In this document: piece by piece, positions 28,293 to 40,328 of the stretch
Numbering within the stretch: position 1 is the first letter of the stretch
Layout of the letters: each line of letters begins with the position of its first letter
Sequence record: AP019559
Direction: 5' to 3' (one strand)
Length of the DNA stretch: 64,000 nt
Source of the DNA: Escherichia phage SP15
Notes under the pieces: generated by a model
Told to the model about the DNA's origin: nothing
The model's input: the letters and a program-made list of their open reading frames with translations, nothing else
The model's database searches: none
Position numbers and translations under genes: made by a program

Positions 28293-28487
28293 CTATAGTT
28301 TACCACGATATACAGAAACTGTCTTACCAGTTTGGTTCATAACGTATGCTACTTCATCTTCTTTTAAGAAGATTGCTTGATCTATTCCAGAAATAGCTAT
28401 GCTTTTATTTCTGGGATTAAACCCTACGCTTTTACCAACATGAATCTGCTCACCACCATCAGTGGACATTATTTTAACTGTTAACAT
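28293..28487 (-). CDS. hypothetical protein
   Basis: 64 aa. Confidence 0.5.
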   Translation of the reverse strand: MLTVKIMSTDGGEQIHVGKSVGFNPRNKSIAISGIDQAIFLKEDEVAYVMNQTGKTVSVYRGKL

Positions 28488-28524
28488 AATTGCTCCTATA
28501 TTTAGCTATCTCTAGCTCTTTTAA

Positions 28525-28600
28525 TGGTAGTTAGTAGTGGATTTGAACCACTGTAGTCGCTCCGTATGAAGGAGGTGCATAACCACTCTGCCAACTAACT
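28525..28600 (-). tRNA. tRNA, anticodon CAT (Met, or Ile if lysidine-modified)
   Basis: Hand fold: 7-bp acceptor, T-arm GGTTCAAATCC, anticodon loop TTCATAC, encoded CCA. Confidence 0.6.
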
Positions 28601-28696
28601 GTTATGTTTTACTAGACTAAGTAAGTATTCTTTATACTCTTTAGACCAATTAGCTTTTTTAAACTTTCCTGGACGCATAGTCTTAATTCCTAGATT

Positions 28697-28773
28697 TGGT
28701 ACTCCGGGAGGGATTTAAACCCCCGATCTCTCGGTTATCAGCCGAGTGCTTTAGATCGCTAAGCTACCGAAGT
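28697..28773 (-). tRNA. tRNA-Ile (GAT)
   Basis: Hand fold: perfect anticodon stem CTCGG/CCGAG, loop CTGATAA. Confidence 0.75.
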
Positions 28774-28788
28774 ATTAGAATATTTACA

Positions 28789-29079
28789 TCATACACTGTC
28801 TAAGTAAGAAGTATAATGGAATTTAGCTTCTCCAGTCTTATCTACTTCTACCTCAGTTCGTGGTACTTGACGAACCACACCATGAATCATCTTATAGCGA
28901 ATGCCTTTAGCTGGTTCATGATCTTTTGGGAATACTTGTTTAACCGTTACTACTTTATATCCTTCACGCGGTGTTAACACTACTACTTGATCACCTTCTT
29001 TGATTTTCCAAGAAGATGGAAATTCATAGGTATATCTTTGACCACCAGTTTGGAATACTACAGAAAGATAACGTTTCAT
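28789..29079 (-). CDS. hypothetical protein
   Basis: 96-aa ORF between tRNA genes with its own promoter. Confidence 0.55.
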   Translation of the reverse strand: MKRYLSVVFQTGGQRYTYEFPSSWKIKEGDQVVVLTPREGYKVVTVKQVFPKDHEPAKGIRYKMIHGVVRQVPRTEVEVDKTGEAKFHYTSYLDSV

Positions 29080-29109
29080 TTGGTTTCCCTCTCATTAATT
29101 TATATAGAT

Positions 29110-29138
29110 ATTATAACAAGAAATAAGAGAGAAGGCAA
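29110..29138 (-). promoter_or_regulatory. T5-type early promoter
   Basis: Minus strand TTGCCT, 17 nt, TATAAT. Confidence 0.55.
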
Positions 29139-29153
29139 ATGAATTTTTAAATT

Positions 29154-29228
29154 TGGTGCTCCCACCAGGAATCGAACCCGGTTCAGATGCTTACAAGGCA
29201 ACTGCATCGCCAGCAATGCTTTAGGAGC
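29154..29228 (-). tRNA. tRNA-Thr (TGT)
   Basis: Hand fold: loop CTTGTAA, acceptor GCTCCTA/TGGGAGC. Confidence 0.7.
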
Positions 29229-29395
29229 GATGATCCCGTTATTTCAACGGGATTTCTTTTTCAATAACAGGAGACTTATCAGTCATAACTGTCATTGCCA
29301 TTTGTTGTAGAAATTCAAAGGTGAAGGCTACACGTTCTTCACCAATCTCTACTTCTACACGTTTCTTTTGTTTATCAATCTTTACTTTTAGGTTG

Positions 29396-29617
29396 TCAGC
29401 CATCTTCGGGTTCTCGTTGCTGTACTACTTCTAGCCAGTCTGGTAGAAGAAACTTTGTACGAAATTCTTCGTAAGTTTCTTTGGGATAAAAGCTAAAACC
29501 TCCTTTCTCATCATTCAGGATAACAGAACCGTCAGTTTGTTCATATGCTCGATATGTTTCTCCAATAATGATAACTCGCTTATCAGTACTTTTATTATGA
29601 AACTCAAAAACGTGCAT
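29396..29617 (-). CDS. hypothetical protein
   Basis: 73 aa. Confidence 0.5.
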   Translation of the reverse strand: MHVFEFHNKSTDKRVIIIGETYRAYEQTDGSVILNDEKGGFSFYPKETYEEFRTKFLLPDWLEVVQQREPEDG

Positions 29618-29633
29618 AATGTTTCCTTAAAGT

Positions 29634-29709
29634 TGGAGCGGCTAGAGGGAATCGAACCCTACTCAGCGAGGCTTGGAAGGCCTGCGACACAACCCGTGTG
29701 CTTAACCGC
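29634..29709 (-). tRNA. tRNA-Gly (TCC)
   Basis: Hand fold: loop CTTCCAA; short D-arm. Confidence 0.65.
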
Positions 29710-29717
29710 TTATTATT

Positions 29718-29793
29718 TGGCTGGAGAAGGAGGAATCGAACCTACCATTAACGGAGTCAAAGGCCGTTGTGCTAACCGTTACACTACTCTCCA
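29718..29793 (-). tRNA. tRNA-Gln (TTG)
   Basis: Hand fold: loop CTTTGAC, U1-A72. Confidence 0.65.
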
Positions 29794-29799
29794 AGTATT

Positions 29800-29875
29800 T
29801 GGCTGGGATGCCACGGATTGAACGTGGAACCTTCGGAGTCAGAGGCCGACGATCTGCCAATTGATCTACATCCCA
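29800..29875 (-). tRNA. tRNA-Gln (CTG)
   Basis: Hand fold: perfect acceptor and T-stems, loop CTCTGAC. Confidence 0.7.
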
Positions 29876-29888
29876 ATAATTCTTTACT

Positions 29889-30083
29889 TTATGTAAATAG
29901 GGTAACTGGCTCAGGTTCTTCAAGGCGCTTACCTTCATGATCTACTCGAATGACTCCGCATCCTTCGCAAACCACAACTGCACCATAACCTTCTTTGACT
30001 TCGGCTTCTGTAATCAGACCAGATAAGTCACCAGTATCTCTGCCCCACATATTAATGGAGCATTGTTTGCAGAAATCAGCCAT
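29889..30083 (-). CDS. small zinc-ribbon protein
   Basis: 64 aa with CxxC...CxxC. Confidence 0.5.
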   Translation of the reverse strand: MADFCKQCSINMWGRDTGDLSGLITEAEVKEGYGAVVVCEGCGVIRVDHEGKRLEEPEPVTLFT

Positions 30084-30108
30084 ATTTTATTTCCTATTTA
30101 AGTTAATT

Positions 30109-30185
30109 TGGGGTGGCTAGTGGAATTCGAATCCACATAGGCCTGATTCACAATCAGGATCATTAACCAATTATGATATAGCCAC
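30109..30185 (-). tRNA. tRNA-His (GTG)
   Basis: Hand fold: loop TTGTGAA, discriminator C, all stems perfect. Confidence 0.8.
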
Positions 30186-30414
30186 AATTGAAAACTCGCA
30201 GGGTTAGCGAAACCTTCCTCAATTAGCATGTTCTAGAATACTAATCAAGTTATCTCCTATTGCACGCAGCTCAAGACGAGTACGAATTTTCAATTGTGGC
30301 AGCTCTCAGAAACTCTTCTATTCTAGCCCCAGAAGCTTACCCCCGAACGCATGTCGGGAAAGTCTTTCCAAGCGCATCAAATAGCACCGTTACACTTTGA
30401 GCCATTGATGTATC

Positions 30415-30499
30415 AAGGAACAGAAGGATTTGAACCTTCACGAGATAGACCATTTATCTCAACCGCTTTTAAGGTATATTTCTAGGAGTGGATGTTCCT
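30415..30499 (-). other. degenerate tRNA-like element
   Basis: Perfect 7-bp acceptor AGGAACA/TGTTCCT, T-arm GAAGG-TTCAAAT-CCTTC, variable-arm-like hairpin; no canonical D or anticodon arm; no CCA. Confidence 0.4.
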
Positions 30500-30552
30500 A
30501 GTAAACCTATTCGGCAGTCCCGTCTACCAATTCCGGCATATTCCAAGAATTT

Positions 30553-30726
30553 TTATAAACCAGCAGAAGCCTCATTTAAAGCATCAACAATAGCTTCACG
30601 TTGGGTCATTCCATACCCAGTGGAATCTAGGTGTGGCAAATAAGCCATCCATCCCTTATCTGTTTCATGAAGGCATGCTTTAAATTTTTTACCGTCCTTC
30701 ATTGTTACAGTAACTGTTTTGCTCAT
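30553..30726 (-). CDS. hypothetical small protein (57 aa, below ORF-track cutoff)
   Basis: ATG with AAGGAA RBS, fills the gap between tRNA genes. Confidence 0.4.
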   Translation of the reverse strand: MSKTVTVTMKDGKKFKACLHETDKGWMAYLPHLDSTGYGMTQREAIVDALNEASAGL

Positions 30727-30746
30727 AATGATTCCTTATAGTTAAT

Positions 30747-30836
30747 TGGAGGAAGGTAATGGAGTCGAACCATCACCGTATCACTACAGCGGGCTAGTTT
30801 TCAAGACTAGTTGCGTACCACTACGCCCTACCTTCC
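30747..30836 (-). tRNA. tRNA-Ser (TGA), class II
   Basis: Hand fold: loop CTTGAAA, long variable arm. Confidence 0.8.
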
Positions 30837-30843
30837 ATTTGTT

Positions 30844-30934
30844 TGGCGGAAGAGGAGAGATTTGAACTCTCAAGCCGTTTTACCAGTCAGCCACTTTCCA
30901 AGCGGTTTTCGTCGCCAATTCGATTTGCTCTTCC
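30844..30934 (-). tRNA. class II tRNA, anticodon unresolved (possibly Ser GGA)
   Basis: Acceptor GGAAGAG/CTCTTCC and T-arm resemble tRNA-Ser; D/anticodon region does not fold canonically by hand. Confidence 0.4.
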
Positions 30935-31046
30935 AAAAATAAGATGATGCCTCTATCACACCAGGCAGTTACGCCCCGCTGGGATTCGAACCCATTAAAA
31001 CAGCTCAACCGAGATAGTAGGTTTAATTTACTCTGACCATCAAATT

Positions 31047-31123
31047 TGGTGCGTGACAAGGGATTCGAACCCTCAAAACCCGACTTCTAAGGACGGTATG
31101 TATGCCAATTCCATCAATCACGC
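31047..31123 (-). tRNA. tRNA with anticodon TAG (Leu by anticodon) but class I architecture
   Basis: Hand fold: loop CTTAGAA, 5-nt variable loop, discriminator A. Confidence 0.55.
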
Positions 31124-31128
31124 GTATT

Positions 31129-31207
31129 TGGTGGAGGATAACGAATTCGAATCGTTCTGATGTCCTCGGTGCAAGCGAGGTGTCCACTCCCAGCAGACCC
31201 ATCCCCC
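31129..31207 (-). tRNA. tRNA-Ala (TGC)
   Basis: Hand fold: G3-U70 wobble in acceptor, loop CTTGCAC. Confidence 0.7.
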
Positions 31208-31492
31208 AAAATCTTTAGTTTACTAAGGCTATTAGCTCGGCGTAACTACAGCACCTTCGCTTCGAGCGGAAGGAACTACGTCATCTCGCAAACCCGATAC
31301 ACTATTCAGTTGCCGCTGAATCTAGTGGACTAATCTAGAACCTCTCCCGAGTCATAGGGATCGTGCTTTTTGGCAGCCAGTCCTAGGTCGAGCTAATACC
31401 TTAGTGAACTATGATGAGGATTTCTCCTCATCAATTTATATAAACATTATATCAAGAAATTAAGCATTAAGCAACTGAATTTCTTATTTAAT

Positions 31493-31566
31493 TGGTACTC
31501 AGTAGTGGAATCGAACCACTGCAACCACCGTGTAAAGATGGAGTTCTACCATTAAACTAACCGAGC
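31493..31566 (-). tRNA. tRNA-Val (TAC)
   Basis: Hand fold: loop TTTACAC. Confidence 0.7.
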
Positions 31567-31719
31567 AAAAGACGTTCTATAATATAGGCTTCAGTTATAA
31601 GCTCATAAAACCCTGCGAATATCATTGCAATAGTAAAATTATCTATGATTACTATTGGCTCTTTAATTTTTTGAATGATTAAATAAAACCAGATAGTCAT
31701 ATCTGACTTCCTCGTAATT

Positions 31720-31798
31720 TGGTAGATCGCCTGGGACTCGAACCCAGAACCTTCCGATTAAAAGTCGGATGCTACTAAACCTATTGAGCTAGCGACCT
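31720..31798 (-). tRNA. tRNA-Lys (TTT)
   Basis: Hand fold: perfect anticodon stem, loop CTTTTAA. Confidence 0.7.
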
Positions 31799-31987
31799 AT
31801 TAGTAGCCATTATATACTTCTTTAATAGAATGGACTTTTAAGTAAGGATGATTAATCCCAAACTCCGCCATTACTTCTTTTTCATCTTTTCCATAATGTG
31901 CAAGTAAGGATCTTGAGGTATTATTACCTAAACGTTTGTCATTTACTACTAATCGAAATACTTTCATTTCGAAATCCTCTATTAAAA

Positions 31988-32064
31988 TGGAAGCGGGTGC
32001 AGGAATCGAACCTACCTCTTTCTAGCTTATGAGACTAGCGATCTCTACCAGAGATCTAACCCGC
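31988..32064 (-). tRNA. tRNA, anticodon CAT (Met/fMet/Ile2 not resolved)
   Basis: Hand fold: loop CTCATAA; acceptor pairing ambiguous at the 1-72 position. Confidence 0.6.
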
Positions 32065-32071
32065 AATTGTT

Positions 32072-32147
32072 TGGTCAGTGCGGCAGGACTCGAACCTGCG
32101 ACCCGAAGCATCCAAGGCTCCCACGCTACCAACTGCGCTACGCACTG
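32072..32147 (-). tRNA. tRNA-Pro (TGG)
   Basis: Hand fold: perfect acceptor CAGTGCG/CGCACTG, loop CTTGGAT. Confidence 0.8.
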
Positions 32148-32156
32148 TTAATTCTT

Positions 32157-32354
32157 TTATTGTGGGGGGATATTAATAATTCGTCCATCTACACAATAAA
32201 CGGTACTAGGGATTGTACTGTATATGTAGAAATTCTTTATATTACTCTCTCCGCCACAGAAATTTTTAGCAAATTCATACTCTTTATTAATGGTTGAGTC
32301 AAGTTTAAAACAACCAGTAAGTAGGAATACAGATAGCAATAAAACTTTCTTCAT
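32157..32354 (-). CDS. small lipoprotein
   Basis: 65 aa, signal peptide with lipobox 'LLTGC'; early-type promoter upstream. Confidence 0.5.
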   Translation of the reverse strand: MKKVLLLSVFLLTGCFKLDSTINKEYEFAKNFCGGESNIKNFYIYSTIPSTVYCVDGRIINIPPQ

Positions 32355-32564
32355 TTTGCTTTCCTTCTCTTCACTTTATAAAATATATTATACAGAGAAT
32401 TAAGTAAAATAGCAAATGAATTTTTAATAAATTTACTTATTGTGTAGGCCACCTGGAGGCTATGAACCCCACGGCTGACAAAGAAGTTTGCGAGACTTCT
32501 CTTAAAAGCCAGAATAGACCCGCCGATCTATCGGAACCTACATAATAAGTAAACTTTATAGTGT

Positions 32565-32640
32565 CATTCTAGACAGGACTCGAACCTGTTATCACTTGTG
32601 CGGACTTACGAGAACCATTCTTTCACTCGAATCGAACGAG
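32565..32640 (-). other. degenerate tRNA-like element with two T-arm-like hairpins
   Basis: ACAGG-TTCGAGT-CCTGT and CTCG-TTCGATT-CGAG hairpins; no canonical anticodon arm. Confidence 0.35.
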
Positions 32641-32807
32641 CTTCTGCCCTAGCCAAGCTGGTTTCCCCATCAACCACGCTAGAATGTTTGATTGTTTTCA
32701 GTGCAAGAGTCCGAGTCTTGGACACGACCGCTTCGCAAGTACATAGGCAGCTTATCATGAGTCAGCACTTCCGAATTGCTAGCCCCGTGTTCTGCACTGA
32801 AATTTTA

Positions 32808-33155
32808 TTAGTTTAACCGTAAAGTATTATCTACTTCACCATTAATTGTTCGGCATTCCTCTGGGATTGCTGGTGTAGCCTTGTATTCCCACCACTCAGC
32901 ACCATCATATTCCCCACGTTCTAGCCAAGTTCCATCGGCAAACCATACATTACCATAAAGTAATTGTCCACCGTATCCAGAATCATATTCAAAGTCTAGG
33001 TTATTAAGAAACCCCTCAATGTCTTCTTCTGTATAACCTAAAGGTAATACCCAGACTTTTTTGTCCCCATAATACCCAAATTCTATTTTAATACACTTAA
33101 CTTTAGAATTGGTATTTTTTAAGGCGAGTAACAGCTCTTCTTTAGCATTACGCAT
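32808..33155 (-). CDS. hypothetical protein
   Basis: 115 aa, Trp/Tyr/Gly-rich. Confidence 0.5.
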   Translation of the reverse strand: MRNAKEELLLALKNTNSKVKCIKIEFGYYGDKKVWVLPLGYTEEDIEGFLNNLDFEYDSGYGGQLLYGNVWFADGTWLERGEYDGAEWWEYKATPAIPEECRTINGEVDNTLRLN

Positions 33156-33180
33156 AGTATATTCTCATACTGAATTAAGT

Positions 33181-33257
33181 TGGCGCGACCGATGGGATTT
33201 GAACCCACATTCTCTCCCGTGACAGGGGAGTACCATTACCAAGCCAGCCCCGGTCGC
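33181..33257 (-). tRNA. tRNA-Asp (GTC)
   Basis: Hand fold: perfect acceptor GCGACCG/CGGTCGC, loop CTGTCAC. Confidence 0.8.
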
Positions 33258-33266
33258 ATAATTCAT

Positions 33267-33452
33267 TTACTCAGCTTTGAGTTTTTCAATAGCTGCATTA
33301 AGTTCTTTAAGAAACTCTTTTCGTACATTAAGACGATTGAGACTTACTAGTATATCGTGTTTAAGTTCTTCGATGTATTTCTTTTCAACTTCAATATTGT
33401 TGATAGTGCTATCACGATGAACTTCTAGCTGCGCAATTACATTCTTGGACAT
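33267..33452 (-). CDS. small coiled-coil protein
   Basis: 61 aa. Confidence 0.5.
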   Translation of the reverse strand: MSKNVIAQLEVHRDSTINNIEVEKKYIEELKHDILVSLNRLNVRKEFLKELNAAIEKLKAE

Positions 33453-33554
33453 GCTTGTTTCCTCAGTTATTAATGAAAATGGTATCTGTGGCTGAATTCG
33501 ATGTCAGCAATGATAGCTGGTTGGCTACCGGTTTACTTAACTCTACACAGAATT

Positions 33555-33637
33555 TGGCGGGCCGTGTAGGATTCGAACCTACGTTGTCTTTCGACATGGA
33601 TTAACAGTCCACCGCCAAACCGCTTGGCTAACGACCC
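33555..33637 (-). tRNA. class II (long variable arm) tRNA with anticodon GTT (Asn by anticodon), discriminator G
   Basis: Hand fold is clean: D-stem GCCA/TGGC, anticodon stem GTGGA/TCCAT, loop CTGTTAA, variable hairpin GTC-GAAA-GAC, T-arm GTAGG-TTCGAAT-CCTAC. Confidence 0.6.
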
Positions 33638-33789
33638 TAAATTTATATTGCTGACTAGGATTTTCACCTAGACGGAGTTAGCACCGTAGCGTGTAGCGGC
33701 ATACCTCTCCAAACCGTGCCTCATCTTTCAATTACGGAGACAGTGTTCCTACGCGTGCCTGAATTGATTCAACAATTCTTCCAGCAAAT

Positions 33790-33865
33790 TGGACGACCGC
33801 ATGAGATTTGAACTCACATAAAAAGGATTTGCAATCCTTCGCCTAAGCCCTTCAGCCAACGGTCG
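33790..33865 (-). tRNA. tRNA-Cys (GCA)
   Basis: Hand fold: perfect anticodon stem AAGGA/TCCTT, loop TTGCAAA. Confidence 0.75.
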
Positions 33866-33934
33866 GTTTATCTTGTTCTGTCATGTTGCTTCTCCAGTTC
33901 AATTTATGTAATTATTATACAGAACTTTTGGAAA

Positions 33935-34207
33935 CTAAGCAACTACATTTTTTAAGAATTTGATGCCTTTCTTTTTCTTCTTATATTTCCACGTTAATGG
34001 ATTCTGTCGATTATGAACGCTTGAGATCTTTGTCTCGTCAAAGTTCTTCAATATCATGTAATCACAGGATAATTGTTCTAGTAGAATGTGATCACCGTCA
34101 AAAGCGTATACATAAGGCTGTTGACTAACACGATAATGATAGACTTTGTTAATTCTACGTTTCAGCGACTTATCAGCGCAGTAAATAAAGAAGTTTTCAG
34201 GATGCAT
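33935..34207 (-). CDS. hypothetical basic protein
   Basis: Track ORF 33935..34222 (TTG start) trimmed to the ATG at 34207 with AAGGAG RBS. Confidence 0.5.
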   Translation of the reverse strand: MHPENFFIYCADKSLKRRINKVYHYRVSQQPYVYAFDGDHILLEQLSCDYMILKNFDETKISSVHNRQNPLTWKYKKKKKGIKFLKNVVA

Positions 34208-34224
34208 CAGCAGCTCCTTCAATT

Positions 34225-34299
34225 TGGTGCACCCTGTTCGTATCGAACGAACCTCTCAAGCTCTTCAGGCAAGCGCTAATCCATCTCAGCTAAAGGTGC
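34225..34299 (-). tRNA. tRNA-Phe (GAA)
   Basis: Hand fold: U8-A9, D-stem GCTG/TAGC, loop CTGAAGA; two U-U mismatches in anticodon stem. Confidence 0.55.
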
Positions 34300-34305
34300 A
34301 AATTT

Positions 34306-34382
34306 TGGCAAACCTACTAGGACTCGAACCTAGACCGTACGGTTTTGGAGACCGACATGCTGTCCAGTAACACTCTAGGAAT
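34306..34382 (-). tRNA. tRNA-Trp (CCA)
   Basis: Hand fold: loop CTCCAAA, perfect T-stem; acceptor has two U-U mismatches. Confidence 0.55.
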
Positions 34383-34390
34383 GCAGAAAT

Positions 34391-34467
34391 TGGCGTCCTG
34401 TGCGGGGATCGAACCCGCAAATCCTACCTTGAAAGGGTAGTGACTTTACCAGTTTGTCTAACAGGAC
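34391..34467 (-). tRNA. tRNA-Glu (TTC)
   Basis: Hand fold: all four stems perfect, loop CTTTCAA. Confidence 0.85.
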
Positions 34468-34474
34468 TTAAATT

Positions 34475-34565
34475 TGGTGTTGGATGATGGAGTCGAACCA
34501 CCCGAGACCCTTCCGAGTCGGCAGATTTACAGTCTGCTTCGCTACCTCTACGATACTAATCCAAC
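34475..34565 (-). tRNA. tRNA-Tyr (GTA), class II
   Basis: Hand fold: perfect acceptor GTTGGAT/ATCCAAC, anticodon arm GCAGA-CTGTAAA-TCTGC, long variable arm. Confidence 0.75.
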
Positions 34566-34630
34566 ATATTTAGAAGTATTCAAAAATTCTCATTTAAACA
34601 CTTTTAAATATGTTTTCAAATTAGGTAACT

Positions 34631-34687
34631 ATTATACCAAGTTTTAAGGCACTGAGCAAGTCAAATTTTAAAGAACTTGCTCAGTGC
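34631..34687 (-). promoter_or_regulatory. early promoter for the tRNA cluster overlapping a 13-bp perfect inverted repeat
   Basis: Minus strand TTGCTC, 17 nt, TATAAT (34631-34659); inverted repeat GCACTGAGCAAGT 34649-34661 / 34675-34687. Confidence 0.55.
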
Positions 34688-34695
34688 TATATTAG

Positions 34696-34971
34696 TTAGT
34701 CGAACTTAGGAGTGACAGTTAAGGAGAACGGAAGTTCGAAAACTTCTTCACCCTCATTACTAACGGTAACTACACGACCTTTAAGTTCAGACATTAAAAT
34801 ATCAATATCAGCTTTTGCATCTGGAGCCATACCAGCTTCAACACATTTAGCTTTAACTTCCGGCAGAAGTTCGACATCGTAGAAATAAAGCCATTCAATC
34901 TCACCTTCCCAGCCTTCCCAGGATTTACAGATTGCACTTTCAATACCAGTTGCTACAACACGATTTTGCAT
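34696..34971 (-). CDS. hypothetical acidic protein
   Basis: 91 aa. Confidence 0.5.
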   Translation of the reverse strand: MQNRVVATGIESAICKSWEGWEGEIEWLYFYDVELLPEVKAKCVEAGMAPDAKADIDILMSELKGRVVTVSNEGEEVFELPFSLTVTPKFD

Positions 34972-35061
34972 TCGTTAACTCCTTCATCAATTTATACAAC
35001 TATTATATCAGAAATTTAAAGCAAAAGGCAAGTACATTTTTAAAAATTCTGTTTGGAGGAG

Positions 35062-35268
35062 CTAAACTCCAGATTCTTCAGCTAAGTCTAGGCTAATAAG
35101 AGTTATAGCCATAATTGCTGCACCGTGTTCTTTTTCTCCGGTGTTTTTAGCAGAGTCTATAATAGTCTTAATCTGTTCGTAATAGCCTTTTACTTCTTGT
35201 TCAATACCTGCCTCGGCTATCATGCCTTTAGTCATGATTCGTTGCATAGTAATTTCACGGTTAGCCAT
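35062..35268 (-). CDS. hypothetical protein
   Basis: 68 aa. Confidence 0.5.
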   Translation of the reverse strand: MANREITMQRIMTKGMIAEAGIEQEVKGYYEQIKTIIDSAKNTGEKEHGAAIMAITLISLDLAEESGV

Positions 35269-35428
35269 GATGTTTCTCCAGCTTCATTTTTAATAGTTTA
35301 CAAATGAAATCAACGTCTTCATCTGTACCTAGATCTCTATCTTCAAGAGTTGCCTTGAAGTTTTTAGTCAATTCCATGAGGATAACTTCTCTAGAACGAC
35401 GTGTTGGCGGAGGTGGATGTCTATACAT
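35261..35428 (-). CDS. hypothetical small protein (55 aa, below ORF-track cutoff)
   Basis: ATG with AAGGAAATAAG RBS; 8-nt overlap with the downstream gene. Confidence 0.35.
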   Translation of the reverse strand: MYRHPPPPTRRSREVILMELTKNFKATLEDRDLGTDEDVDFICKLLKMKLEKHHG

Positions 35429-35443
35429 CTTATTTCCTTAGTT

Positions 35444-35520
35444 TGGTAGGGGTGGTGGGATTCGAACCCACAAAACCTGAATTTTAAGTCCAGTACCTAT
35501 GCCAATTCGATTACACCCCC
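35444..35520 (-). tRNA. tRNA with anticodon TAA (Leu by anticodon) but class I architecture
   Basis: Hand fold: good acceptor and T-stem, loop CTTAAAA, 5-nt variable loop, discriminator A. Confidence 0.55.
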
Positions 35521-35527
35521 GTGTAGT

Positions 35528-35716
35528 TTAGTCAATTACTTTTGAGGCTTCAAGGTAGTCGATATAGTGTATGTTTTCTACCGTAATCATATAATCTGTC
35601 ACTTTATCCATAGCTTGGGCTTCAGAGGTAGCTCTGGCTAACCTATATCCTTTTTTATATTCATCCGGGTATTCTCTATCTTGGATAAACACAACATAAA
35701 CTATATATAGATCCAT
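35528..35716 (-). CDS. hypothetical protein
   Basis: 62 aa. Confidence 0.5.
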   Translation of the reverse strand: MDLYIVYVVFIQDREYPDEYKKGYRLARATSEAQAMDKVTDYMITVENIHYIDYLEASKVID

Positions 35717-35735
35717 TTGTGACCTCTATTTAATT

Positions 35736-35813
35736 TGGTGGCTCCCCGAGGATTCGAACCTACGTACCTTCCGGTTATGAGCCGGGTGCTCATACCATAT
35801 GAGCTTGAGAACC
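35736..35813 (-). tRNA. tRNA, anticodon CAT (third copy)
   Basis: Hand fold: perfect D-stem GCTC/GAGC, loop CTCATAA; weak T-stem. Confidence 0.5.
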
Positions 35814-35819
35814 AGAATT

Positions 35820-35908
35820 TGGCGGAAGAAGCGGGAATCGAACCCACAAGGCTATATTTCAAACCGACAGATTAGCAATCTGCTGCAATACCGTTATGCT
35901 ATTCTTCC
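35820..35908 (-). tRNA. tRNA-Ser (GCT), class II
   Basis: Hand fold: perfect acceptor GGAAGAA/TTCTTCC, loop TTGCTAA, long variable arm. Confidence 0.75.
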
Positions 35909-35929
35909 GAATTTATAAGATATATTATA

Positions 35930-36448
35930 TTAGAAATTTAGCTTCATAGCAAGAAAATTTTTCAAGTTTTCGGTAGACATCTCATCCACATCTACGGGAG
36001 AAACAAAGCCGTTTAATTTTCTAGCAAATTTTTCACCCGCAGGATCATTATCTCCGACAGCTACCAATTTAAAAGGTAGTAATTTCAGTTGCTTTAATAA
36101 CGCTTTTCCTGGAGAAGAACCCAACATTGCTAGGGCTGGATAACCAGCATTATGTAACGCAACTGCCTTAAATACAGATTCAGCAATCAATACTACTTTT
36201 TCATCTCCATTGAGAGTTTCTAGTCCCCATACACACTGGGTAGTAGAATAAGTAAAGTATTTAGCTTCAAAGGGGCACTTACCATGACCTTTTGGAGCAG
36301 AAGGATTATAAGTTTGATAGCCCCTCAACATCCCAGAGAAGTCATACAACGGGACTGTTAGCCATCCTTCCGGACTTAACCAGCAATGATATTTATCTGT
36401 ATCAAATCCTCTAGATAAGAGGTGCTGTGTTAGCTCATCAACATTCAT
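35930..36448 (-). CDS. TOPRIM-domain protein (small primase or nuclease-like)
   Basis: Track ORF 35930..36499 trimmed to the ATG at 36448 (AAGAGGAA RBS); conserved Glu in 'LIAESVF' and 'VGDNDPAGE' DxD motif. Confidence 0.5.
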   Translation of the reverse strand: MNVDELTQHLLSRGFDTDKYHCWLSPEGWLTVPLYDFSGMLRGYQTYNPSAPKGHGKCPFEAKYFTYSTTQCVWGLETLNGDEKVVLIAESVFKAVALHNAGYPALAMLGSSPGKALLKQLKLLPFKLVAVGDNDPAGEKFARKLNGFVSPVDVDEMSTENLKNFLAMKLNF

Positions 36449-39516: not shown

Positions 39517-40018
39517 TTTAAATATTTTTAAGAACTCTCGTAAAAACTCTTAAAAATACAGACGATACCGGGAGAGTCATAAGTCTCACTCATTAAGTAT
39601 TTCAAGACAAAATACAGTAACGTCTATTATTTTCCAGTTTAAGTCAGGGTGACTTAGTGGTTAGGTCCTGCGGTATATTGAGGACTCGGTTAGGCTTGGG
39701 GTCATGACTTCCCGCCTTTTGCTGCTACTCAACAGGAGTTATCGCGAATTACCTGTGCTATTGTGCACCATTAGTGACATCTCTCATGTCAGCATTTCCC
39801 ACTTTGTGGATAGCTTGAAAAACTACTCCGATATGGAGAAAAAACTTCACTATCCTAGAATACCTTCTAAAGTTCTTCTTTAGCCTGGACATAGTTAAAT
39901 CGTAATAAAACTATTCAGCAGACTGGTTGGTTAGCCTGGAACCAACTACCGCGTGGTTTAGGCAGTGCGCAACTAACCTCGGAAGCTTTTACGTTAAAAG
40001 CATCAGTTATCCAGTTCT

Positions 40019-40090
40019 TACCGACCGTAGGATTCGAACCTATATCTTCCACCAGTTACGGCTTGATAATACCAATTATACTAGGACGGC
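40019..40090 (-). other. degenerate tRNA-like element inside an ~800-bp non-coding region
   Basis: Acceptor-like pairing GCCGTCC/GGTCGGT and T-arm TAGG-TTCGAAT-CCTA; no canonical anticodon arm. Confidence 0.35.
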
Positions 40091-40328
40091 AGTGTTACTA
40101 CATAAGTGATTTCCACACCCCACTATTTATAAATTAGAGAAGAGTTTAGGGGAGAGGTTTCAGACGCCTCATTTTACACGTTCTAGCCACTAACCGGGAT
40201 TGCCGCCCCCTGTGTACTAGTTTTACAACTAACCTACCGACTCTATTCAACGAATCTTAGTGCTCGACGCATCTTACATTAAGACAAGTTCAGCGTAATC
40301 GGCTCGCTGTTCTCTAATTTATGAATAT

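What the first reader, a model, noticed from the sequence alone, without database searches (positions are those of the whole stretch)
28525..35813. Three tRNAs with CAT anticodons
Copies at 28525-28600, 31988-32064 and 35736-35813 probably represent elongator Met, initiator Met and lysidine-modified Ile2, but I could not assign which is which; the 1-72 acceptor pair of the 31988 copy is ambiguous by hand.
Basis: seen in the sequence. Interest (0 to 1): 0.35.

Follow-up and report, generated by a model that had tools for sequence, protein, structure and literature searches.

The report
T5-phage Met, fMet and Ile2 tRNAs
The window is the tRNA gene cluster of a T5-like phage, and its three CAT-anticodon tRNAs are the already catalogued T5 elongator methionine, initiator (formyl-methionine) and lysidine-dependent isoleucine tRNAs, so the finding is real but ordinary.

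Summary
All three CAT-anticodon tRNA genes exist, on the minus strand: A at 28525-28600, B at 31988-32065 (one base longer than reported) and C at 35736-35813. They lie in a cluster of 26 tRNA genes in a T5-like phage (Tequintavirus).

- **Prior annotation.** B and C are 100% identical, and A 75/76 identical, to genes that the hand-curated GenBank record AJ604531 (phage 5) names tRNAfM, tRNAI2 and tRNAM. T5's own record AY734508 also names tRNAI2.
- **A = elongator Met.** It has a paired A1-U72, A73, C11-G24, U4-A69 and A5-U68 (the pairs that block E. coli TilS), and C27-G43 and C30-G40.
- **B = initiator type.** It has a U1·U72 mismatch, G2-C71, C3-G70, G4-C69, A11-U24 and G30-C40. It has only one of the three canonical anticodon-stem G-C pairs, and U73.
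- **C = tRNA-Ile2 type.** It has C5-G68, U12-A23, C29-G41, A37, A38 and A73. Its anticodon arm resembles that of T4 tRNA-Ile(CAU). Homologues in other phage families carry the E. coli ileX-type GGCCC acceptor end.
- **Odd features of C.** A conserved bulged base in the T stem and A8 explain why default ARAGORN misses it.

Novelty: already known. Lysidine modification and formylation are inferred here, not shown.

The parts
28525..28600 (-). tRNA A: elongator tRNA-Met(CAU), 76 nt with encoded CCA; anticodon at 28568-28566
   Evidence: ARAGORN; Rfam 51.5 bits. It is 75/76 identical to tRNAM of AJ604531. Features: A1-U72, A73, C11-G24, U4-A69, A5-U68, C30-G40, G44 and anticodon loop UUCAUAC. Across the family A5-U68 is kept 7/7 and C27-G43 7/7, with a bulged C in the window copy.
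31988..32065 (-). tRNA B: initiator-type tRNA-fMet(CAU), 78 nt with encoded CCA; anticodon at 32031-32029
   Evidence: ARAGORN (drawn with a t.t 1-72 mismatch); Rfam 43.6 bits. It is 100% identical to tRNAfM 'initiator tRNA-fMet' of AJ604531. A 98.7% homologue is annotated tRNA-fMet in phage TrudiRoth. Features: U1xU72, G2-C71, C3-G70, G4-C69, A11-U24, G30-C40 and U73. G2-C71, C3-G70, A11-U24 and G30-C40 are each kept 8/8 in the family.
35736..35813 (-). tRNA C: tRNA-Ile2 type (CAU, presumed lysidine-modified), 78 nt with encoded CCA; anticodon at 35779-35777; bulged T in the T stem; A8
   Evidence: Rfam 40.3 bits; ARAGORN only at -ps90. It is 100% identical to tRNAI2 of AJ604531 and 97.4% to tRNAI2 of T5 AY734508. 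In the family C5-G68 and C29-G41 are kept 8/8, 27x43 is never paired, five pairs show compensatory changes and 49:65 covaries across the bulge.
28697..28773 (-). tRNA-Ile1(GAU), the phage's other isoleucine tRNA, just upstream of tRNA A in the direction of transcription
   Evidence: ARAGORN; Rfam 65.5 bits. It shares U12-A23, C29-G41, G30-C40, G31-C39, A37, A38 and A73 with tRNA C.
35924..35952 (-). sigma-70-type promoter (TTGCTA-17-TATAAT) upstream of tRNA-Ser(GCU) and tRNA C
   Evidence: It corresponds in position to promoter P15b of AJ604531. tRNA-Ser ends 6 nt before tRNA C.
32387..32415 (-). sigma-70-type promoter (TTGCTA-17-TATAAT) upstream of the small lipoprotein ORF, tRNA-Pro and tRNA B
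   Evidence: It is in the position of promoter P13a of AJ604531. tRNA-Pro ends 6 nt before tRNA B.
29110..29138 (-). sigma-70-type promoter (TTGCCT-17-TATAAT) upstream of an ORF, tRNA-Ile1 and tRNA A
   Evidence: It is in the position of promoter P11 of AJ604531.

Best explanation
The window is the early-region tRNA cluster of a T5-like phage (Tequintavirus, Demerecviridae). Its three CAU-anticodon genes are the phage's complete set for AUG and AUA decoding. (A) 28525-28600 is an elongator tRNA-Met. It would be charged by host MetRS through the CAU anticodon, delivered by EF-Tu because 1-72 is paired, and protected from host TilS by A5-U68 and U4-A69. (B) 31988-32065 is an initiator-type tRNA. 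It would be charged with Met, formylated by host formyltransferase thanks to the U1·U72 mismatch plus G2-C71, C3-G70 and G4-C69, and used in the ribosomal P site through G30-C40. It is a relaxed version of the canonical initiator, with au/GC/ug instead of three G-C pairs, and U73 instead of A73. (C) 35736-35813 is a tRNA-Ile2. Host TilS would convert C34 to lysidine, after which IleRS charges it (A73, U12-A23, C29-G41, A37, A38) and it reads AUA. AUA makes up 13.4% of Ile codons in the 51 longest non-overlapping ORFs (at least 120 aa) of the window. All three are co-transcribed with neighbouring tRNAs from strong early promoters and released by RNase P and 3' processing, with CCA already encoded. 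Shown here: gene presence, anticodons, cloverleaf covariation, identity elements and identity to curated T5/phage 5 genes. Inferred: lysidinylation, formylation and actual use in translation.
For: The window is 89-98% identical to many T5-like phages over 28400-36100. The curated record AJ604531 names the homologues tRNAM, tRNAfM (initiator) and tRNAI2, and AY734508 (T5) names tRNAI2; sequence identity is 75/76, 78/78 and 78/78.

Determinant table: A matches E. coli metT at 12/25 diagnostic positions against 7-8 for the others. B matches metZ (fMet) at 16/25 against 10-12. C matches ileX at 14/25 against 12.

Family alignments:
- B: position 1 is left unpaired by RNAalifold; G2-C71, C3-G70, A11-U24 and G30-C40 are each 8/8; 16 of 23 pairs show compensatory changes. 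The Pectobacterium phage homologue has all three G-C pairs.
- C: 95% of cells pair, 5 pairs show double changes, C29-G41 and C5-G68 are 8/8, and 27x43 is unpaired 8/8.
- A: A5-U68 and C27-G43 are 7/7.

C homologues in the Vequintavirinae and Stephanstirmvirinae phages keep A8, the T-stem bulge and the 27x43 mismatch, but have a GGCCC acceptor end with C4-G69 and C5-G68, like E. coli ileX. T4 tRNA-Ile(CAU) shares G27xA43, U28-A42 and C29-G41 with C-family members.

Literature:
- E. coli TilS reads C4-G69 and C5-G68 positively, and U4-A69 and A5-U68 negatively. TmcA reads C27-G43, C30-G40 and G44 of tRNA-Met (PMC2500205).
- Formylase determinants are the 1-72 mismatch plus A73, G2-C71, C3-G70 and G4-C69 (PMC9976931).
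- G30-C40 alone can sustain E. coli, and natural au/GC/gu initiators exist (PMC5389676).
- T5 is listed with tRNA-Ile1, Ile2, Met and fMet, citing Chen et al. [quoted passage not shown]
- Phage CAU tRNAs called Met by tRNAscan-SE are recognised as lysidine-type Ile in T4-like phages (PMC1524935).

AUA usage is 8.5 per 1000 codons.
Against: - B lacks two of the three G-C pairs regarded as the initiator hallmark (A29-U41, U31oG39) and has U73, a departure from the minor formylase determinant A73. Two family members have a weak 1-72 pair (A-U, U-A) instead of a mismatch.
- C has U4-A69, which in E. coli tRNA-Met acts as a negative element for TilS. Its overall similarity to ileX is only marginally higher than to metT (14 against 12 of 25).
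- Automatic annotations nearly always call C tRNA-Met, including the record that calls B tRNA-fMet.
- A does not fold into a cloverleaf as its minimum-energy structure (z = -1.0).
- No modification, charging or formylation data could be examined directly. The 1975 and 1980 biochemical papers are not held in the library.
Confidence: 0.85

Rival explanations
1. tRNA C is a second elongator tRNA-Met rather than tRNA-Ile2. Its C34 stays unmodified and it reads AUG.
For: Most deposited annotations label it tRNA-Met, including the TrudiRoth record, which does distinguish tRNA-fMet. It has U4-A69, as E. coli tRNA-Met does. Its positional similarity to metT (12/25) is close to that for ileX (14/25).
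Against: - C5-G68 and C29-G41 are invariant in 8/8 family members, while neighbouring pairs covary.
- A-family Met tRNAs always have A5-U68, and C27-G43 and C30-G40 are kept as pairs in every member.
- C lacks all three TmcA/tRNA-Met marks: C27-G43, C30-G40 and G44.
- Homologues in two other phage families carry the ileX-type GGCCC acceptor end.
- T4 tRNA-Ile(CAU) shares its unusual anticodon stem.
- Curated records call it tRNA-Ile.
- T5 is listed with two Ile acceptors but has only one GAU gene.
- tRNAscan-SE is documented to call phage lysidine-type Ile tRNAs Met.
Confidence: 0.1
2. tRNA B is not a working initiator. It is a decayed or elongator-like Met tRNA, because it lacks the three G-C pairs and A73.
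For: Only G30-C40 remains of the 3GC motif, and the discriminator is U73. One close variant has an A1-U72 pair. In E. coli, au/GC/gu initiator mutants grow less well in minimal medium.
Against: - The sequence is 97-100% conserved in about 360 phage records.
- The initiator-specific features U1 mismatch, A11-U24, G2-C71, C3-G70 and G30-C40 are retained across four Demerecviridae genera and a Grimontviridae phage, while 16 of 23 pairs change by compensation.
- One homologue has the full 3GC set.
- The middle G-C pair alone is sufficient in E. coli.
- T5 was reported to code for a formylmethionine-specific tRNA (title cited).
Confidence: 0.07
3. Some of the three are pseudogenes or chance tRNA-like folds, especially C with its bulged T stem and A8.
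For: Default ARAGORN misses C. Its Rfam score is among the lowest in the cluster (40.3 bits). The cluster also contains annotated tRNA-like RNAs of unknown function.
Against: The bulge and A8 are conserved in 8/8 sequences from six phage genera, with 49:65 covarying C-G to G-C around the bulge and the bulged base itself changing U to C. C is 100% identical in 143 or more records. It has an encoded CCA and lies 6 nt after tRNA-Ser, downstream of a strong promoter.
Confidence: 0.03

Closest known systems
Bacteriophage 5 / T5 tRNA genes tRNAM, tRNAfM and tRNAI2 (GenBank AJ604531 and AY734508, curated tRNA-region records)
   Same: Same gene order and strand, with the same neighbours: Ser3-I2, Pro-fM and Ile1-(ORF)-M. 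B and C are 78/78 identical to the phage 5 genes, A is 75/76 identical, and C is 76/78 identical to T5 tRNAI2.
   Different: A has one base difference in the D loop. The window has different intervening ORFs: a small lipoprotein ORF sits where phage 5 has the hegB homing endonuclease.
E. coli initiator tRNA-fMet (metZ/W/V/Y)
   Same: CAU anticodon with loop CUCAUAA, a 1-72 mismatch, G2-C71, C3-G70, G4-C69, G5-C68, G6-C67, A11-U24, G30-C40 and A44.
   Different: The mismatch is U·U instead of C·A, and the discriminator is U73 instead of A73. The anticodon stem has A29-U41 and U31oG39 instead of G-C pairs. B has U14 with A21, which allows a 7-bp D hairpin, and a 6-nt variable loop.
E. coli tRNA-Ile2 (ileX) and phage T4 tRNA-Ile(CAU)
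   Same: CAU with A37 and A38, A73, U12-A23, C29-G41, G30-C40, C5-G68 and a non-Watson-Crick 27:43. T4 has G27xA43, U28-A42 and C29-G41, as C-family members do.
   Different: The window copy has U4-A69 instead of C4-G69, U3oG70, A8 instead of U8, U21, and a bulged nucleotide in the 5' strand of the T stem.
E. coli elongator tRNA-Met (metT/U)
   Same: A paired 1-72, G2-C71, U4-A69, A5-U68, A73, C11-G24, U29-A41, C30-G40 and G44. C27-G43 is kept if the extra C is treated as a bulge.
   Different: A has A1-U72 and U3-A70, U32 and C38 in the anticodon loop instead of C32 and A38, A12-U23, a G13xA22 mismatch, a short D loop and a bulged C in the anticodon stem.

Membership tests
Bacterial initiator tRNA-fMet (tRNA B) | CAU anticodon | tested here: met
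   ARAGORN anticodon cat at position 35.
Bacterial initiator tRNA-fMet (tRNA B) | No Watson-Crick pair at 1-72 (major formyltransferase determinant; keeps EF-Tu off) | tested here: met
   U1xU72 in the window. The family has a mismatch in 6 of 8 sequences and a weak A-U or U-A pair in 2.
Bacterial initiator tRNA-fMet (tRNA B) | G2-C71, C3-G70 and G4-C69 (minor formylase determinants) | tested here: met
   All three are present in the window. G2-C71 and C3-G70 are 8/8 in the family. The determinants are taken from PMC9976931.
Bacterial initiator tRNA-fMet (tRNA B) | A73 discriminator | tested here: not met
   U73 in the window and in 6 of the other 7 family members; A73 only in Proteus phage Stubb.
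Bacterial initiator tRNA-fMet (tRNA B) | A11-U24 (purine 11 : pyrimidine 24) instead of the elongator Y11-R24 | tested here: met
   A11-U24 is 8/8 in the family. A and C have C11-G24.
Bacterial initiator tRNA-fMet (tRNA B) | Three consecutive G-C pairs at 29-41, 30-40 and 31-39 | tested here: not met
   The window has A-U, G-C and UoG. G30-C40 is 8/8 in the family, and the full 3GC set occurs only in the DU_PP_V homologue. The literature reports that the middle pair suffices in E. coli.
Bacterial initiator tRNA-fMet (tRNA B) | Formylation of Met-tRNA and use in the P site at initiation | not testable with these tools
   Only the title of Chen et al. 1975 could be seen, in a reference list. The paper itself is not held.
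Lysidine-dependent tRNA-Ile2 (tRNA C) | CAU anticodon with A37 and A38 in a CUCAUAA loop | tested here: met
Lysidine-dependent tRNA-Ile2 (tRNA C) | E. coli TilS acceptor-stem determinants C4-G69 and C5-G68 | tested here: inconclusive
   C5-G68 is present and 8/8 in the family. 4-69 is U-A in the window and in 6 of 8 sequences, and C-G in the BIS47 and FKP3 homologues. The determinants are taken from PMC2500205.
Lysidine-dependent tRNA-Ile2 (tRNA C) | IleRS identity set: A73, U12-A23 and C29-G41 (the list of determinants is recalled from Nureki et al. 1994, not re-read here) | tested here: met
   All three are present in the window and invariant 8/8 in the family. They are shared with the phage's own tRNA-Ile(GAU).
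Lysidine-dependent tRNA-Ile2 (tRNA C) | Absence of the tRNA-Met marks read by TmcA (C27-G43, C30-G40, G44) | tested here: met
   C has CxA at 27:43, G30-C40 and A44. 27:43 is unpaired 8/8.
Lysidine-dependent tRNA-Ile2 (tRNA C) | Lysidine at position 34, charging with Ile, decoding of AUA | not testable with these tools
   Supported only indirectly: T5 is listed with Ile1 and Ile2 acceptors, and there are curated tRNA-Ile annotations.
Elongator tRNA-Met (tRNA A) | CAU anticodon, paired 1-72, A73 and Y11-R24 | tested here: met
   A1-U72, A73 and C11-G24. 1-72 covaries A-U to G-C in the family.
Elongator tRNA-Met (tRNA A) | TilS antideterminants U4-A69 and A5-U68 | tested here: met
   Both are present in the window. 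A5-U68 is 7/7 in the family; 4-69 is U-A in 4 sequences and C-G in 3.
Elongator tRNA-Met (tRNA A) | TmcA determinants C27-G43, C30-G40 and G44 | tested here: inconclusive
   C30-G40 and G44 are present. C27 pairs with G only if the extra C is bulged; that pair is then 7/7 in the family. In the strict register it is CxC.

The most novel reading that the evidence does not exclude
The initiator copy B may be more than a spare. It could be an initiator hardened against host nucleases. Enteric VapC toxins cut host tRNA-fMet between A38 and C39. Seven of the eight B-family sequences examined change that junction: six have A38-G39 and one has C38-G39. The eighth keeps C39 but has U38. The price is the loss of two of the three G-C pairs, which the retained G30-C40 could offset. 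The non-host anticodon loop of tRNA A (U32, C38), and the conserved T-stem bulge and A8 of tRNA C, could be similar escape features.
Probability: 0.15. Interest if true: 0.5.

Novelty: already known. Interest (0 to 1): 0.15.

Why it matters
It matters little beyond correct annotation. T5-type phages have been known since the 1970s to carry Met, fMet and two Ile tRNAs, and the genes are named in curated GenBank records. Two points are practically useful. First, automatic pipelines label copy C as tRNA-Met or miss it altogether, so AUA-decoding capacity is under-reported in hundreds of T5-like genomes. Second, copy B is a natural, widely conserved initiator with only the middle G-C pair. It could serve as a ready-made test case for work on how much of the 3GC motif is needed in E. 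coli, and for the idea that phage tRNAs escape host tRNA nucleases.

Tried and rejected
- **No isotype models.** tRNAscan-SE isotype models are not available here. I replaced them with a table of experimentally defined identity elements plus family covariation.
- **Raw positional similarity.** Similarity to the three E. coli CAU tRNAs separates A and B clearly but hardly separates C (14 against 12 of 25). I did not rely on it for C.
- **ARAGORN thresholds.** Default ARAGORN misses C, while -ps80 and -ps70 flood the window with false calls. Only the -ps90 result was used.
- **Single-sequence folding.** Minimum-energy folding gives no cloverleaf for A (z = -1.0). The alignment-based fold was used instead.
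- **Papers not held.** The biochemical papers on T5 Met/fMet tRNAs (PMC432352) and on VapC cleavage (PMC3088637) are not in the library. I cite only what other papers say about them.
- **Promoter scan.** The total count is not above chance (18 found against 20 ± 5.6 in shuffles). Only the 10/12 minus-strand sites that coincide with curated promoters were kept.
- **Not needed.** No protein-database, structure-prediction or metagenome searches were run.

Full report
**What is there**

ARAGORN finds 23 tRNA genes in the window, all on the minus strand between 28525 and 39516. Two carry a CAT anticodon, at 28525-28600 and 31988-32065. Rfam's tRNA model scores those at 51.5 and 43.6 bits. It also finds a tRNA at 35739-35813 (40.3 bits) that ARAGORN misses.

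The cmscan alignment of that third hit shows a CAU anticodon in a CUCAUAA loop and an inserted base in the T stem. With ARAGORN's thresholds lowered by 10% it is called tRNA-Met(cat) at exactly 35736-35813. The same run adds tRNA-Gly(tcc) at 29634-29709 and tRNA-Ser(gga) at 30844-30934, which brings the cluster to 26 tRNA genes.

The one adjustment is that the middle copy starts at 32065.

**Where it comes from**

The region 28400-36100 matches 681 phage records, and the best hits are 93-99% identical T5-like phages of Escherichia, Salmonella and Klebsiella. One hit is the hand-curated record AJ604531, 'Bacteriophage 5 tRNA gene region'. It annotates the three homologues as follows:
- tRNAM: tRNA-Met.
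- tRNAfM: 'initiator tRNA-fMet'.
- tRNAI2: tRNA-Ile.

The window's B and C copies are 78/78 identical to the phage 5 genes, and A is 75/76 identical. T5's own partial record AY734508 also names tRNAI2 next to tRNA-Ser3.

A review lists T5 as coding for tRNA-Ile1, Ile2, Met and fMet. It cites Chen et al. [quoted passage not shown] That paper itself is not held.

**Independent test of the assignment**

I laid the three tRNAs out by standard tRNA position numbers. I compared them with E. coli metT, metZ and ileX, fetched from the MG1655 annotation, and with the phage's own tRNA-Ile(GAU).

*Copy A (28525-28600)* looks like an elongator Met.
- It has a paired A1-U72, A73 and C11-G24.
- It has U4-A69 and A5-U68, the pairs that act as negative determinants for E. 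coli TilS.
- It has C30-G40 and G44, which are tRNA-Met marks read by TmcA (PMC2500205).
- In seven A-family sequences from four genera, A5-U68 is invariant.
- 1-72 covaries A-U to G-C in the family.
- C27 pairs with G in all seven sequences if the extra C in the window copy is treated as a bulge.

*Copy B (31988-32065)* looks like an initiator.
- It has U1·U72, G2-C71, C3-G70, G4-C69 and A11-U24. These are the formyltransferase determinant cluster and the initiator-specific D-stem pair (PMC9976931).
- Among eight B-family sequences from Tequintavirus, Epseptimavirus, Sugarlandvirus, Novosibvirus, Hongcheonvirus and a Grimontviridae phage, RNAalifold leaves position 1 unpaired.
- In that family G2-C71, C3-G70, A11-U24 and G30-C40 are each 8/8, while 16 of 23 pairs show compensatory change.
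- One Epseptimavirus record annotates its 98.7% homologue as tRNA-fMet.

*Departures of B from the textbook initiator.*
- Only the middle G-C pair of the three is present (A29-U41, G30-C40, U31oG39).
- The discriminator is U73.
- The Pectobacterium phage DU_PP_V homologue has all three G-C pairs, so the lineage is initiator-derived.
- Published mutagenesis shows that G30-C40 alone sustains E. coli, and that au/GC/gu initiators occur naturally (PMC5389676).

*Copy C (35736-35813)* looks like tRNA-Ile2.
- It has C5-G68, U12-A23, C29-G41, A37, A38 and A73.
- It lacks all three tRNA-Met marks: 27:43 is C·A, 30:40 is G-C and position 44 is A.
- In eight C-family sequences, five pairs show compensatory changes and 95% of cells pair.
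- C5-G68 and C29-G41 never vary, although 28-42, 30-40 and 31-39 all do.
- 27:43 is never a standard pair in the family.
- The T stem keeps a bulged base after position 50, with 49:65 switching C-G to G-C around it.
- A8, in place of the near-universal U8, is also invariant.

*Two outside comparisons for C.*
- Homologues in Klebsiella phages of the Vequintavirinae and Stephanstirmvirinae keep A8, the bulge and the 27:43 mismatch. They have a GGCCC acceptor end, that is C4-G69 and C5-G68, the exact E. coli TilS determinants and the ileX sequence.
- T4's tRNA-Ile, a CAU gene annotated isoleucyl-tRNA, has G27·A43, U28-A42 and C29-G41, like the Epseptimavirus and Sugarlandvirus C copies.

*Background on phage tRNA-Ile(CAU).*
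- T4-like phages are already known to carry lysidine-type tRNA-Ile(CAU) genes that tRNAscan-SE calls Met (PMC1524935).
- This explains why most deposited T5-like genomes label C 'tRNA-Met' or leave it unannotated.

*Weak points for C.*
- The window copy has U4-A69, a Met-type pair.
- Its raw positional similarity to ileX is only 14/25, against 12/25 for metT.
- I therefore put the Ile2 reading at about 0.85-0.9, not at certainty.

**Function and context**

Among the 51 longest non-overlapping ORFs (at least 120 aa) of the window, AUA makes up 13.4% of Ile codons, or 8.5 per 1000 codons, at 39% G+C. From general knowledge this is roughly twice the E. coli value, so a phage tRNA-Ile2 makes sense.

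Each CAU gene sits directly after another tRNA or a short ORF, downstream of a 10/12-match minus-strand promoter (35952-35924, 32415-32387, 29138-29110). These fall in the positions where AJ604531 annotates P15b, P13a and P11. All three genes encode CCA.

The mechanism follows from established pathways and is inferred, not shown. Host RNase P releases the tRNAs. MetRS charges A and B. Formyltransferase acts on B. TilS and then IleRS act on C.

**Most novel reading not excluded**

Enteric VapC toxins cut host tRNA-fMet between A38 and C39 (PMC4105405). None of the eight B-family sequences keeps A38-C39: six have A38-G39, one has C38-G39 and one has U38-C39. A has U32 and C38 where E. coli tRNA-Met has C32 and A38.

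This fits the published idea that phage tRNAs carry anticodon-loop changes that escape host nucleases (PMC10264068). It is untested, and the recognition rules of VapC are unknown. I give it about 0.15.

**Verdict**

They are already catalogued T5 genes, so novelty is 'already known' and interest is low.

Noticed in passing
window 29634-29709 (-), 30844-30934 (-), 31129-31207 (-): The tRNA detectors disagree. Default ARAGORN misses tRNA-Gly(tcc) and tRNA-Ser(gga), which appear only at -ps90 and are annotated in AJ604531. Rfam at gathering threshold misses tRNA-Ala(tgc), which ARAGORN finds. The cluster holds 26 tRNA genes, not 23.
   Followed up: partly
window 31988-32065 and 35736-35813 (-): B and C can each form a perfect 7-bp D hairpin with a 3-nt loop (GATCTCT-GGT-AGAGATC and GCTCATA-TGG-TATGAGC), and this is the minimum-energy fold. 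They depart from the usual U8/A14/A21 set: B has U8, U14 and A21; C has A8, A14 and U21. In the B family the 14-21 pair covaries U-A to A-U.
   Followed up: partly
L006:16572-16657 (Pectobacterium phage DU_PP_V): This is an 86-nt CAU tRNA with initiator marks (C1xU72, A11-U24, three G-C pairs, A73) but a long variable arm. It is present in addition to the normal B homologue at L006:12165-12240. It is not annotated in the record.
   Followed up: no
window about 30190-30545, 31215-31420, 32440-32800, 33640-33760, 40018-40091 (-): These are structured non-coding stretches between the tRNAs. They give weak tRNA-like hits: 30415-30545 at 25.9 bits, 40019-40090 at 28.3 bits, and ARAGORN -ps90 'Ser' calls at 32617-32684 and 40018-40091. 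They lie between the same flanking tRNAs as the 'stable RNA / tRNA-like RNA with unknown functions' features of the curated T5/phage 5 records (RNA I, III, IV, RNA1-3, 2H, RNAX). I did not align them.
   Followed up: no
window 32157-32354 (-): A 65-aa ORF with a lipoprotein signal (MKKVLLLSVFLLTGC...) lies between a promoter and tRNA-Pro/tRNA B. It matches PHROG 6073 'Rz-like spanin' at E = 1.2e-28. Phage 5 has the HNH homing endonuclease gene hegB at this position instead.
   Followed up: partly
phage BF23, record OR083247.1, 36234-36261: BF23 keeps only the last 28 nt of tRNA C, overlapping an annotated promoter (H70). It keeps an intact copy of B (H83). Some T5-like phages have therefore lost the Ile2 gene.
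   Followed up: no
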